Of a DNA stretch of 64,000 nt, positions 1,670 to 4,772 are shown in pieces. Position numbers and translations under genes: made by a program. The notes beneath the pieces were generated by a model that saw only the letters and a list, made by a program, of their open reading frames with translations, ran no database searches and was not told the DNA's origin. Positions within the stretch are counted from its first letter, which is position 1. Each line of letters starts with the position of its first letter. This DNA is from the human T2T-CHM13v2.0 reference genome, Homo sapiens. Location: NCBI RefSeq assembly GCF_009914755.1, contig NC_060936.1. The stretch is one strand, 5' to 3'.

Positions 1670-2358
1670 GTAATCTATGATCTTTTGAAAAAAACAAGGG
1701 AATGGCATTTAACAGAGAAGCTGCTCATACCCACGCGTCTTTGAGCCATCTTCTGAAAGCTGGGGAGTTGGCTGTGGCAGAGGTCATACTGGATTTTCAG
1801 GAACAAGATCTGTTAGGGGATCCAACCACACTGTGCTTTTTCTAGCTATTCCTTAGCTTAAGCAGCTGAAACCAGCATGTAGACAAGCCGATAAATGTCA
1901 GAATGACCTGGGTCATAGATTTTAATTGTGAGTTCAAATTCTTTGGTAAAGCAAATCCGATCTTCATAAGGGTCAGGAAATTCCTTAACTATGGCCCATA
2001 ATTTGGCCTTCGACTAGGGTTGATAGAGAATCAGGACTCCAGGCAGGCCGGGCACACACGCTGCTGGTACTGGAAGTGAACCACTGGGACCGAGCATGAG
2101 CAAGCCAGTGAGTGGGTCCCGCAGCCCCCTGGACCCAGGGCCAAGCATGGCGGCTGCCAAGGTGGCTTTAACTGAGAGAGCAGATCCAACTGAGCTTATA
2201 ACAATATTTTTGAAGTATGCAAGCATTGAGAAAAATGGTGAATTTTTCATGTCTCCCAGTGACTTTATCACTCCATACTTGAACATTTCTGGAGAAAGCC
2301 AGCCTAACCCAAAGACTGTGGAACTTTTAAGTGGGGTGGTGGGTCAGACCAAAGATGG

Positions 2359-2440
2359 GAGGAATGTTGTCCCAGCGTTGATGATGCTAAGTTTGATCAC
2401 TTGATGAAGGTGGCATCCACCAGCTATTTCCATTTTAATG
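2359..2440 (-). mobile_element. 82-nt fragment of an old L1M 3' end (antisense), present as an exon within the retrocopy
   Basis: tgatgctaagtttgatcacttgatgaaggtggcatccaccag resembles the antisense L1MC/L1MD 3'UTR motif tgatgttaaccttgatcacttggttaaggtggtgtctgccag. Lies exactly between exon 3 and exon 4 homology. Confidence 0.65.
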
Positions 2441-2593
2441 ACTAGTATCTTTTCAAGAATGTGTGGCCTTTTGATTGGTCCTGGGTGCCCCTGATACTTT
2501 GTTTATGGTAGCCTTTCAGCTAGCTGTTTGACAAAGCTGGCAAAGGAGAAGTAACTTTTGATCAGAAAGAGGATGGTACCAGCAGTCTACAGG

Positions 2594-4160
2594 TGTCATC
2601 CCAGTCACTGTTCCCTGGTCCCAATGGTAACAACTGACATTTATCACCATCAATTGGTTTTTCCTGTTTTTAAACTTAATTGGAACTATACAGAATGTAC
2701 TCTTTCAGTCTGGCTTCTTTTGTTCAACATTTGTGAGATTTATCCATGCTGTATTTTTTATTTTTCTTCACTGTATAGAATTCCGTTGTGTGACAGCATA
2801 TCCATTCTAGGGTCGATAGACATTTTGGGACATTTTCAGTTTTGGCTACTACAAGTAATGTGTTTTCAACATTGTTTTACGTATTTTGTGTGTGTGTGTG
2901 TGTGAGTGTGTGTATTTCTAGGAATAGAACTGCTGGGTCATAGAAAATGTGTAAATTTACCTTCAGTAGATCTTGCTAAACTGTTTCCTAAAATGATGGT
3001 ACCAGTTAACACTCATACCATCATTGTATGAAGGCTCCATTTATTTCAGATATTTGCCAACACTTGGTATCAGTCATTTGTTATTTCAGTGGTATCTCAG
3101 TGTGGTTTTGATAAGCATTTCCCTGATTCCAAATGGGTCCTAGAACTTATTGGCCATTTAGGTATCCTCTTCAGTCATGTGCTTATCTTCTGGATACAAG
3201 ACCTGTGGTGGTTATATGTTTCATAGATGTCTTTACTCTGTTCACTGTTACTCATTTAACTGAGTCTTGAGGAACTTAAGTTCCTAATTTTAATGTAGTA
3301 CAAATTATCAGCATTTTCTTTTGTAGCTAGCTCTTTTTGCGTCCTGATTAAGAAATCTTTGCTTTCCTCCAGGTCGGGAAAATAATCTCCATTATTATCT
3401 TCCAGAAGTTTGTTTTCCTTTCAAATTTAGATTTTAATTGTTCTAGAATTTGTGATATTTTTACATGGCATTAAAGGTAAGGGTCAAAGATTCTTCCCTG
3501 GCCCTCTTCCCCATGGATATGTAGATCACCCAGCACCATTTAATGAAAAGATCACTCTTTTCTTTTTTTTTGAGACGCAGTTTTGCTCTCGTTGCCCAGG
3601 CTGGAGTGCAATGGCACGATCTCGGCTCACTGCAACCTCCACCTCCTGGGTTCAGGCGATTCTCCTGCCTCAGCCTCCCAAGTAGCTGAGATTACAGGTA
3701 CCCGCCACCACGCCCAGCTATTTTTTTTTTGTATTTTTAGTAGAGACGGTTTCACCATATTGGCCAGGCTGGTCTCGAACTCCTGACCTCAGGTGATCCA
3801 CCTGCCTCGGCCTCCCGAAGTGCTGGGATTACAGGTGTGAGCCACCCCATGCAGCCAAGATCACTCTTTTCTTTATTGCACTGCAGTGGTACTGCTGTCA
3901 TAAATTCAATATGGGGCTGTATCTGAATGCTCTATTCTTTTCATATAATTGTATATTATCCACTAATACTATCTTAATTACTACAGCTTTATAAGTCATA
4001 CCTGATAAGTCTTTCAACTTTATTCTTTAAGATTATCTTGGCTATTCTTGGCCCTATTCATTATCAAAACAATTTCAGAATAAGTTGTTAATTTCCACAA
4101 ACATCCTGCTGGGATTCTGAATGCACTGAATATGTGTAATATCTGGGTGTATATGTGTAA
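2594..4160 (-). mobile_element. Old L1M (L1ME/L1MC-like) 3' region, antisense, forming the terminal exon of the retrocopy
   Basis: Antisense L1M motifs (tctggcttcttttgttcaacat, tttctaggaatagaactgctgggtcatag, ccagcaccatttaatgaaaag, gattatcttggctattcttggccc); (TG)n at ~2887-2913. Confidence 0.8.
3560..3856 (-). mobile_element. Alu (AluS-like) inside the retrocopy
   Basis: Antisense Alu; TSD aagatcactctttt. Confidence 0.93.
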
Positions 4161-4171
4161 TTAAATGTTTT

Positions 4172-4484
4172 TTTGTTTGTTTGTTTGTTTTTTCTGAGAC
4201 GGAGTTTCGCTCTTGTTGCCCAGGCTGGAGTGCAATGGCACGATCTCGGCTCACTGCAACCTCCACCTCCTGGGTTCAAGCGATTCTCCTGCCTCAGCCT
4301 CCCAAGTAGCTGGGATTACAGGTGCCCACCACCTCGCCCGGCTAATTTTTTGTATTTTTAGTAGAGATGGGGTTTCACCATAATGACCAGGCTAGGCTGG
4401 TCTCGAACTCCTGACCTCAGATGATCCACCCTCCTCAGCCTCCCAAAGTGCTGGGATTACAGGCGTGAGCCACCACGCCCGGCC
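4172..4484 (-). mobile_element. Alu (AluS-like) inserted at the poly(A) signal of the retrocopy
   Basis: Antisense Alu; TSD aattaaatgtttt (4159-4171 / 4485-4497) duplicates the ATTAAA. Confidence 0.93.
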
Positions 4485-4772
4485 AATTAAATGTTTTAAT
4501 CCCTTAAAAAAAAGAGAAAGAGAATTAGGAATCCCCCACCTATCATAGGCTGTTCCCAGAATGAGGCAACCACAGGAAGCATTCCTGTGGAGTTCCTGTC
4601 CGTCACTTCTGAACAAGAGGTTGCTGCCAGGGTAGGTGGAAGGACAACAAGAGCAGGGGCCTTTGGAGCCGTGTTTCCTGTCACAGTCTAACAAGTGGCA
4701 GACAAGGAGAAAGAGATGGCAGAAGAAGAAAAATCAGATCCAGCCTGGAGAGTTAGAAAGATGAAGATAGAG

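What the first reader, a model, noticed from the sequence alone, without database searches (positions are those of the whole stretch)
2025..4534. Complete retrocopy that fossilises a truncated, intronically polyadenylated SLC25A13 (citrin) isoform
Seen: citrin homology covers only the 5'UTR to the end of exon 4 (gtaacttttg, 2560), the reverse of the usual 5'-truncated retrocopy. The insert does not end there. It continues through ~1.3 kb (Alus excluded) of antisense L1M sequence to ATTAAA (4486-4491), then 14 nt, an A-tail (4506+), and a 16-bp repeat (4519-4534) matching 2025-2040 at 14/16. Established: L1-mediated TPRT copies polyadenylated RNA and leaves such TSDs. From recall, SLC25A13 exon 4 ends at c.328, exactly where homology stops. 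Inference: the template was a germline mRNA spliced from exon 4 into an L1-derived alternative last exon in SLC25A13 intron 4, lacking the whole carrier domain. This is a molecular fossil of premature termination in a disease gene.
Basis: partly seen in the sequence, partly recalled or inferred. Interest (0 to 1): 0.85.

Follow-up and report, generated by a model that had tools for sequence, protein, structure and literature searches.

The report
Retrocopy of an aberrant SLC25A13 transcript
This is a dead, tens-of-millions-of-years-old reverse-transcribed copy of an unusual citrin (SLC25A13) messenger RNA that carried an extra stop-containing exon and ended early inside intron 4, an ordinary kind of genomic fossil that happens to reveal two hidden exons in a disease gene.

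Summary
Window 2041-4518 is one L1-type retrocopy flanked by a 14/16 target-site duplication (2025-2040 / 4519-4534).

- **Single insert.** The two flanks are contiguous in five other copies of an old repeat.
- **Canonical exons.** The insert maps colinearly and in sense to SLC25A13 on chr7: 5'UTR and exons 1-4, with introns removed at exact exon ends.
- **Terminal exon "4b".** A 1.3-kb stretch follows exon 4. Its only close genomic match starts directly after an AG, 4,424 nt into the 25.8-kb intron 4. It ends about 15 nt after an AATAAA.
- **New here: exon "3b".** An 82-nt segment (2359-2440) between exons 3 and 4 maps to intron 3 behind a good acceptor and carries an in-frame stop. The template was therefore probably a non-productive transcript rather than a truncated citrin isoform.

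Two Alus entered the retrocopy later. An LTR-like element and an Alu entered the parental exon later.

Divergence (K2P 0.13 between copies) suggests roughly 40-65 Myr. Retrocopies as archives of isoforms are known, so this is a new member of a known kind. Present-day use of either exon is untested.

The parts
2025..2040 (+). 5' copy of the target-site duplication (AGAGAATCAGGACTCC)
   Evidence: Matches 4519-4534 at 14/16 and is the only such match in the window. It corresponds to a single-copy stretch in five paralogous repeat copies.
2041..2161 (+). Retrocopy, SLC25A13 exon 1: 5'UTR plus c.1-15, with ATG at 2147
   Evidence: Matches C7:97557993-97557837 on the minus strand. The retrocopy starts about 142 nt upstream of the parental ATG and about 50 nt downstream of a CCAAT/GC-box-like stretch.
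2162..2215 (+). Retrocopy, exon 2 (c.16-69)
   Evidence: 93% identical to C7:97532846-97532793. The parental exon is flanked by AG and GT.
2216..2358 (+). Retrocopy, exon 3 (c.70-212)
   Evidence: 94% identical to C7:97513233-97513091. The parent ends ...GATGG|GTATGT.
2359..2440 (+). Extra cassette exon '3b' from SLC25A13 intron 3. It is repeat-derived and contains an in-frame stop.
   Evidence: Best match in 82 kb of the parental gene is C7:97508981-97508902 (sense, 79-81%, E 8e-16), directly behind ...TGTATCTCCTCAG|. The stop codon is shown.
2441..2560 (+). Retrocopy, exon 4 (c.213-328), with a 4-nt insertion
   Evidence: 88-91% identical to C7:97470812-97470697. The parent ends ...AACTTTTG|GTAAGA.
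2561..3565 (+). Alternative terminal exon '4b', first part, derived from SLC25A13 intron 4
   Evidence: Colinear with C7:97466273-97465822, 97464433-97464062 and 97463766-97463549. The parent has CCAG| immediately before the first base.
3566..3856 (-). Alu inserted into the retrocopy later. Its target-site duplication is 3548-3565 / 3857-3874.
   Evidence: Absent from the parent. Direct repeat D7. Two SRP-RNA-like halves on the minus strand.
3857..4171 (+). Terminal exon 4b, second part. 3857-3874 is the duplicated Alu target site.
   Evidence: 86% identical to C7:97463569-97463241.
4172..4484 (-). Second Alu inserted later. Its target-site duplication AATTAAATGTTTT is at 4159-4171 / 4485-4497.
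   Evidence: Absent from the parent. Direct repeat D14. SRP-RNA-like matches on the minus strand.
4485..4505 (+). End of exon 4b: poly(A) signal ATTAAA (4486-4491; AATAAA in the parent) plus 14 nt to the cleavage site
   Evidence: Parent reads ...ATAAATAAATGTTTTATTCCTTTAA|GAATTTTT. Homology stops here.
4506..4518 (+). Remnant poly(A) tail (AAAAAAAAGAGAA), not templated in the parent
4519..4534 (+). 3' copy of the target-site duplication (AGAGAATTAGGAATCC)

Best explanation
Window 2041-4518 is a processed pseudogene. It was made by LINE-1 target-primed reverse transcription of one polyadenylated SLC25A13 (citrin) RNA and inserted on chr12 into an older repeat, in what is now a SINHCAF intron.

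The template RNA started at or near the normal promoter. It was spliced exon 1-2-3, then an 80-82-nt repeat-derived cassette exon from intron 3 ('3b', with a premature stop), then exon 4. From the exon 4 donor it was spliced into an acceptor 4.4 kb into intron 4. It then ran about 1.3 kb through an antisense L1 remnant ('4b') and was cleaved and polyadenylated about 15 nt after an AATAAA.

Shown: the intron removals at exact exon ends, the AG acceptors, the poly(A) signal and cleavage position, the target-site duplication, and the single-insert nature.

Inferred:
- The RNA was made in the germline or early embryo.
- It was a rare, non-productive by-product and not a functional isoform.
- The insertion is about 40-65 Myr old.

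The copy itself is dead. Its frame stops after 85 codons and it has since taken up two Alus.
For: 1. **Parent identity.** Exons 1-4 map to four chr7 pieces in order on one strand. The retrocopy translation matches citrin (PDB 4P5W, 'Aralar2') at 62/70.
2. **Exact junctions.** Exon 4 ...ACTTTTG is joined to ATCAGAAAG. In the parent that sequence follows ...GAGCCAG| at C7:97466273, while exon 4 itself is followed by GTAAGA.
3. **Locus specificity of 4b.** The three chr7 pieces score E 7e-119, 5e-96 and 2e-58, against 6e-15 at best elsewhere. The last 311 nt score 3e-102 against 2e-14.
4. **Inside intron 4.** Exon 5 lies at C7:97444879-97444740, 47/47 identical to citrin. Its 140-nt length agrees with c.329-468 in PMC3777997.
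5. **3' end.** Homology stops 14-16 nt after the parental AATAAA and is followed by a non-templated A-run.
6. **Single insert.**
   - The upstream flank aligns to five other repeat copies up to copy position 200.
   - The downstream flank aligns from copy position 193-215 onward.
   - 0/300, 0/300, 0/300, 1/300 and 2/300 shuffles reach the observed scores.
7. **Same age for all parts.** K2P is 0.130 over 1,266 sites of 4b, where both lineages are free (0.065 per lineage). The constrained parental coding exons differ at 14/212 sites, or 6.6%.
8. **Exon 3b.** The only significant match in the 82 kb of gene sequence fetched lies in intron 3, in sense, starting right after ...CTCCTCAG|.
9. **Gaps between the chr7 pieces are later insertions in the parent.** One is a 1,388-bp multicopy element with at least 9 other near-full-length copies. 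The other is an Alu with its own target-site duplication.
Against: - No RNA data and no outgroup genomes could be consulted. Present or past abundance, tissue and exact age are untested.
- The 3b assignment is the weakest link:
  - It is repeat-derived and only 79-81% identical to the intron 3 copy.
  - Unrelated copies elsewhere reach 84-89% over 43-61 nt.
  - The assignment rests on the longer alignment (74 bits against at most 66), the position inside the right intron, and the exact acceptor boundary.
- At the expected 3b donor, modern human has AAAG|GCTACA, which is GC and not GT.
- The target-site duplication is imperfect, and 36 of 2000 random place pairs reach 14/16.
- The A-tail is short and impure.
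- The poly(A) hexamer differs between the copies: ATTAAA in the retrocopy, AATAAA in the parent.
Confidence: 0.92

Rival explanations
1. Chimeric retrocopy made by reverse-transcriptase template switching. The L1 enzyme started on an independent polyadenylated RNA from the intron 4 L1 region, then jumped to a separate SLC25A13 mRNA.
For: L1 reverse transcriptase is known to make chimeric retrocopies (established knowledge, recalled). An intronic L1 remnant could be transcribed on its own.
Against: - The junction falls exactly at the exon 4 donor on one side and immediately after an AG in the parent on the other.
- Both parts come from the same gene, on the same strand and in genomic order.
- A second non-canonical junction pair (3/3b/4) has the same splice-like precision.
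Confidence: 0.03
2. A retrocopy of exons 1-4 only landed by chance next to an L1M fragment already resident on chr12. The L1-like 1.3 kb is then not part of the insert.
For: The segment belongs to an abundant repeat family with many weak genomic matches.
Against: - 88% substitution identity to one specific copy inside SLC25A13 intron 4 over 1,266 sites. This equals the divergence expected from the exons.
- Homology ends at the parental poly(A) site.
- The target-site duplication and the flank continuity bracket the whole of 2041-4518.
Confidence: 0.01
3. The structure is the same, but the template was a regulated, functional SLC25A13 isoform: a physiological cryptic last exon and/or poison exon that tunes citrin dosage, or a short EF-hand protein. 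It was not processing noise.
For: - The AG acceptor and AATAAA of 4b are still intact in modern human.
- Without 3b, the exon 4-4b frame gives the same 25-residue tail ending at the same stop in parent and retrocopy.
- Physiological cryptic last exons are reported across vertebrates (bioRxiv 10.64898/2026.01.30.702498; abstract start seen in the listing).
Against: - The only molecule recorded carried a premature stop in 3b.
- 4b has since absorbed a 1.4-kb LTR-like element and an Alu in the parent, which does not suggest constraint.
- 4b diverges at the neutral rate.
- The 3b donor position is GC today.
- No paper in the held library links SLC25A13 to such exons (none of the 12 papers listed mentions the gene).
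Confidence: 0.1

Closest known systems
Processed pseudogenes as archives of transcript isoforms. Shemesh et al. [quoted passage not shown] 2016 (PMC4772013).
   Same: A retrocopy preserves the exon structure of a non-canonical transcript of its parent gene. Carelli et al. state that retrocopies have served as archives of transcript isoforms (passage read).
   Different: This case records two non-canonical events in one molecule, a cassette exon and an intronic terminal exon, for a Mendelian disease gene. I could not read Shemesh et al. itself because it is not held. Whether this locus is in their set is unknown.
Cryptic or alternative last exons with intronic polyadenylation (for example SFPQ-repressed cryptic last exons, PMC7997972)
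   Same: A terminal exon inside a long intron, defined by a 3' splice site and a downstream poly(A) signal, truncates the transcript. The abstracts seen in the listings say these exons prefer long introns.
   Different: Here the evidence is a DNA fossil and not RNA. Present-day use is untested.
Exonization and cryptic polyadenylation caused by intronic L1 elements (Kaer et al. 2011, PMC3192792)
   Same: Prematurely terminated host transcripts that end in exonized intronic sequence at L1s and use cryptic splice and poly(A) sites (abstract read).
   Different: The L1 identity of 4b is only weakly supported here. No interference mechanism can be tested from sequence.
Pathogenic retrotransposal insertions in SLC25A13 introns 4 and 16 (Song 2013, PMC3777997; PMC12269974)
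   Same: They involve the same gene and the same L1 machinery. They show that intron 4 events disturb splicing around exons 4-5 (passages).
   Different: Those are insertions into SLC25A13 that cause disease. This is an ancient copy of an SLC25A13 RNA placed on another chromosome.

Membership tests
L1-mediated processed pseudogene (retrocopy) | Introns removed precisely at annotated exon ends | tested here: met
   Junctions 1/2, 2/3 and 3b/4 match parental exon ends that are flanked by AG and GT.
L1-mediated processed pseudogene (retrocopy) | 3' end at a poly(A) site, followed by a non-templated A-tail | tested here: met
   Homology stops 14-16 nt after the parental AATAAA. The retrocopy then has A8GAGAA, where the parent has GAATTTTT.
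L1-mediated processed pseudogene (retrocopy) | Target-site duplication bracketing the insert | tested here: met
   14/16 match, unique in the window. The flanks overlap on the same stretch of five paralogous repeat copies.
L1-mediated processed pseudogene (retrocopy) | Located away from the parent gene | tested here: met
   chr12 against chr7.
L1-mediated processed pseudogene (retrocopy) | L1 endonuclease-like target (T-rich/A on the bottom strand) | tested here: inconclusive
   By direct reading, the bottom strand at the nick reads TTCTCT/AT. This is pyrimidine-rich but not the TTTT/AA consensus, which is recalled.
Alternative (cryptic) last exon / intronic polyadenylation isoform of SLC25A13 | 3' splice site AG in the parental intron exactly at the start of the segment | tested here: met
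   ...CTGCTTACCACGAGCCAG|ATCAGAAAG at C7:97466273.
Alternative (cryptic) last exon / intronic polyadenylation isoform of SLC25A13 | Lies between exon 4 and exon 5 | tested here: met
   Exon 4 ends at 97470697, 4b spans 97466273-97463241, and exon 5 starts at 97444879.
Alternative (cryptic) last exon / intronic polyadenylation isoform of SLC25A13 | Canonical poly(A) signal 10-30 nt before the end | tested here: met
   AATAAA in the parent and ATTAAA in the retrocopy.
Alternative (cryptic) last exon / intronic polyadenylation isoform of SLC25A13 | RNA evidence in living cells | not testable with these tools
   No transcriptome data are available here. Literature searches found nothing.
Poison cassette exon (exon 3b) | AG acceptor and GT donor in the parental intron | tested here: inconclusive
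   The acceptor ...CTCCTCAG| is met. The donor position reads G|GCTACA in modern human, so GT is not met today. The ancestral state is unknown.
Poison cassette exon (exon 3b) | Frame-shifting length or an in-frame stop | tested here: met
   82 nt in the retrocopy and 80 nt in the parent. There is a TGA in frame in both.
Functional retrogene | Intact reading frame under constraint | tested here: not met
   - The frame stops after 85 codons.
- There are 8 non-synonymous against 6 synonymous codon changes in c.1-210.
- Exon 4 has a 4-nt insertion.
- Two Alus have been inserted.

The most novel reading that the evidence does not exclude
Exon 4b (intron 4, +4,424) and exon 3b (intron 3, about +4,110) are still usable in living humans as a cryptic last exon and a poison exon. 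They would divert part of SLC25A13 transcription into unproductive RNAs. Deep-intronic variants or nearby insertions that strengthen them would then account for some genetically unsolved citrin-deficiency alleles. On this reading the retrocopy shows the diversion is at least about 40 Myr old.
Probability: 0.12. Interest if true: 0.55.

Novelty: new member of a known kind. Interest (0 to 1): 0.3.

Why it matters
On its own this is an ordinary dead pseudogene. It has three modest points of value.

- **Clean example.** It shows a retrocopy that records an intronically polyadenylated, doubly mis-spliced transcript, with every boundary checkable against the parent.
- **Two exact intronic places in a disease gene.** These are an acceptor-defined 80-nt exon in intron 3 and an acceptor-plus-AATAAA terminal exon in intron 4. 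Exome and panel tests do not look at either.
  - Intron 4 is already known to harbour a recurrent pathogenic insertion that disturbs splicing (PMC3777997, PMC12269974).
- **Annotation gap.** The locus does not appear in the RefSeq gene table supplied with the window, so it may be an unannotated pseudogene in that annotation. I could not check GENCODE.

Tried and rejected
- **Pfam on antisense ORFs of 2561-4171.** Eight stop-free pieces gave no family. Six read-through frames with stops as X also gave none.
- **PDB search with the read-through antisense frame.** Nothing at E of 0.01 or better. A 95-residue piece gave L1 ORF2p as top hit, at E 0.28 only. The L1 label stays weakly supported.
- **Stringent local alignment of the downstream flank to the repeat copies.** It did not exceed shuffles (scores 17-29, shuffle maximum 29). 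A softer scoring scheme did.
- **Pfam on the two flanking-repeat ORFs.** No family found. The identity of the repeat that was hit stays open.
- **Gap 1 in the parent as a spliced intron.** Its ends read GT...AG, but splicing there would give ...ATGTGGTACC, not the observed ...ATGGTACC. The piece is also a complete multicopy element. Rejected in favour of a later insertion.
- **An alternative 3b donor at CCATT|GTAAAG.** Rejected, because the retrocopy retains the six bases homologous to GTAAAG.
- **Literature.**
  - 'SLC25A13P1' returned 0 papers.
  - SLC25A13 with 'retrocop' returned 0 papers.
  - SLC25A13 with 'intronic polyadenylation' returned 1 unrelated paper.
  - SLC25A13 with 'pseudogene' returned 56 papers, of which 15 were listed and none concerned this locus.
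  - Two cDNA-cloning papers (PMC4835617, PMC5675625) had no mention of intron 3/4 insertions in the main text.
- **Closed or unavailable sources.**
  - Shemesh et al. 2006 is not held.
  - Earlier findings were not open.
  - One search failed on term length and was not repeated.
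Full report
**What is there.**
- A citrin-like 5' part ends in GTAACTTTTG at 2560.
- About 1.3 kb of other sequence follows, interrupted by two Alu-like elements.
- ATTAAA lies at 4486-4491, followed by 14 nt and an A-run from 4506.
- AGAGAATTAGGAATCC at 4519-4534 matches AGAGAATCAGGACTCC at 2025-2040 at 14/16.
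- In the whole 64-kb window, 2025 is the only other place that matches the 3' copy at 14/16 or better.
- In a null of 2000 random place pairs searched over the same 30 x 61 offsets, 36 reached 14/16.
- Both interrupting elements carry their own direct repeats: 3548-3565/3857-3874 and 4159-4171/4485-4497 (families D7 and D14).
- Each gives two SRP-RNA-like matches on the minus strand, as expected of dimeric 7SL-derived Alus.

**Parent gene and canonical exons.** The window's own genome could be searched.
- 2041-2560 gave 15 matches: itself, four pieces on chr7 minus strand in order, and ten weak hits.
- The four chr7 pieces are 97557941-97557835, 97532848-97532793, 97513235-97513090 and 97470813-97470697.
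- The ten weak hits are all confined to query 323-414.
- The parental pieces are bounded by AG and GT.
- The translation of 2147-2359 matches PDB 4P5W, 'Calcium-binding mitochondrial carrier protein Aralar2' (citrin), at 62 of 70 residues.
- Song et al. 2013 (PMC3777997, passages) give r.213_468del as exon 4,5 skipping and r.329_468del as exon 5 skipping.
- In the parent, exon 4 ends ...AACTTTTG|GTAAGA.
- The retrocopy's first base (2041) aligns about 142 nt upstream of the parental ATG and about 50 nt downstream of a CCAAT/GC-rich stretch. The copy is thus 5'-complete or nearly so.

**The 1.3 kb after exon 4.**
- 2561-3560 has as its best non-self matches three colinear chr7 pieces on the same strand as the exons:
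  - 97466273-97465822
  - 97464433-97464062
  - 97463766-97463557
- These score E 7e-119, 5e-96 and 2e-58. The best match elsewhere scores 6e-15, at 74% over about 155 nt.
- 3861-4171 continues at 97463561-97463244 (E 3e-102, against 2e-14 elsewhere).
- Ignoring gaps, identity is 88.2% over 1,266 sites (K2P 0.130).
- In the parent, the first base is preceded by ...CTGCTTACCACGAGCCAG|. This is an AG acceptor 4,424 nt into the intron.
- At the other end, the parent reads ...ATAAATAAATGTTTTATTCCTTTAA|GAATTTTT and the retrocopy reads ...TAATTAAATGTTTTAATCCCTTAAAAAAAAGAGAA. Homology ends 14-16 nt after AATAAA and a non-templated A-run follows.
- The two gaps between the chr7 pieces are later insertions in the parent:
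  - A 1,388-bp unit has thousands of first-look candidates and at least nine other near-full-length copies. Its ends do not give the observed junction if spliced.
  - An Alu is flanked by AAAAAATCT/AAAAAATTCT.

**Is it intron 4?**
- I located exon 5 at C7:97444879-97444740 (140 nt, flanked by ...TTTTCAG| and |GTGGGT).
- Its translation is 47/47 identical to citrin in 4P5W.
- Its length equals c.329-468.
- Intron 4 is therefore 25.8 kb and the new terminal exon ('4b') lies wholly inside it.

- 2359-2440 (82 nt) sits between exon 3 and exon 4.
- Within the 82 kb of gene sequence I fetched (introns 3 and 4 and beyond), its only significant match is C7:97508981-97508902. That is in intron 3, in sense, at 79-81% identity, E 8e-16.
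- The match begins directly after ...TGTATCTCCTCAG|.
- It is part of an old repeat.
  - Unrelated copies match the retrocopy at 84-89%, but over only 43-61 nt.
  - In one of them the repeat homology continues into parental intron sequence that the retrocopy lacks.
- The exon carries an in-frame TGA in both copies. The retrocopy frame reads 71 citrin residues plus 14 others.
- At the expected donor, modern human has AAAG|GCTACA. This is a GC, so the exon may no longer be used, or may use a weak GC donor. The ancestral state is unknown.
- Without 3b, exon 4 to 4b would add 25 residues and stop at the same codon in parent and retrocopy.

**One insert, not two neighbours.**
- The upstream flank (about 1697-2033) belongs to a repeat with 13 other matches. 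The downstream flank alone found nothing by BLAST.
- In pairwise alignments to five of those copies, the upstream flank aligns up to copy position 200 in all five.
- The downstream flank aligns from copy position 193-215 onward. It starts exactly at 4519 in three of five.
- 0/300, 0/300, 0/300, 1/300 and 2/300 shuffles reach the observed scores.
- A stricter scoring scheme had not separated signal from shuffles.
- The flanks are therefore contiguous in the uninterrupted repeat, and their overlap is the target-site duplication.

**Age and state.**
- Coding positions c.1-212 differ at 14 of 212 sites (8 non-synonymous and 6 synonymous codons).
- 4b differs by K2P 0.130, or 0.065 per lineage. Exons and 4b are thus equally old.
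- With recalled primate neutral rates of about 1-1.5e-9 per site per year, this is roughly 40-65 Myr. This is an inference and was not tested.
- The two Alus differ from each other at 8.7% of sites (5.9% outside CpG).
- The copy shows no sign of constraint and is interrupted, so it is a dead pseudogene.

**L1 identity of 4b.** Pfam found nothing in antisense ORFs or in read-through frames. The top PDB hits of one antisense piece are human L1 ORF2p residues 1078-1115 (IREMxIKTTxRYH), but at E 0.28. I regard 'antisense L1 ORF2 C-terminus/3' end' as likely, partly from recall. It is not demonstrated.

**Comparison with what is known.**
- Retrocopies as archives of transcript isoforms are established (Carelli 2016, PMC4772013, citing Shemesh 2006 and others; passage).
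- Exonization and cryptic polyadenylation at intronic L1s are described (Kaer 2011, abstract).
- Cryptic last exons in long introns are described (abstracts in the listings).
- I found nothing in the held library on this pseudogene or on these two SLC25A13 exons.
I could not read Shemesh 2006.

**Verdict.** The fossilised RNA was a doubly non-canonical, stop-containing transcript. It is most simply read as a by-product of RNA processing that happened to be retrotransposed. It is a new member of a known kind. Its practical interest is that it marks two deep-intronic, splice-competent sites in a disease gene.

Noticed in passing
window 1697-2040 and 4519-~4660: The retrocopy inserted into an older interspersed repeat. 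That repeat has 13 other matches in the genome, 4 of them on the X chromosome, at 68-77% identity. A 51-codon minus-strand ORF (1858-2013) has no Pfam match. From recall it faintly resembles a retroviral gag N-terminus. The family was not identified.
   Followed up: partly
L017 3434-4821 (C7:97464434-97465821) and C7:97463767-97464061: Since the retrocopy was made, the parental terminal exon 4b has taken up two elements. One is a complete 1,388-bp multicopy element, LTR12-like by recall, with internal repeats. The other is an Alu. A present-day 4b would therefore be about 3.0 kb.
   Followed up: partly
window 2041-4518 relative to SINHCAF (hub table): The retrocopy lies inside the SINHCAF gene span (minus strand), in an intron and antisense to the host gene. 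It has no pseudogene row in the RefSeq table supplied.
   Followed up: no
window 3593-3720 and 4217-4344, 4434-4485: There are Rfam matches to mir-1268 and mir-3135 inside the two Alus. All are below the gathering scores (30-65 bits against 80-83). They reflect Alu-derived miRNA family models and are not genes.
   Followed up: no
L013, C7:~97558046-97558030: A CCAAT-plus-GC-box-like stretch (AGCCAATGGGCGGGC) lies about 50 nt upstream of the parental position where the retrocopy begins. This is consistent with the retrocopy marking an ancestral transcription start. The retrocopy also lacks a stretch of about 30 nt of GCC-rich 5'UTR present in the parent.
   Followed up: partly
PMC12269974 against PMC3777997: PMC12269974 calls exon 4 skipping a 'naturally occurring in-frame' isoform. 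By the numbering of Song 2013, exon 4 is c.213-328, which is 116 nt and not a multiple of three. This is either a numbering difference or a slip in print.
   Followed up: no
window 2888-2913: A short (GT)n-like run lies inside exon 4b of the retrocopy. I did not check whether the parent has the same run.
   Followed up: no
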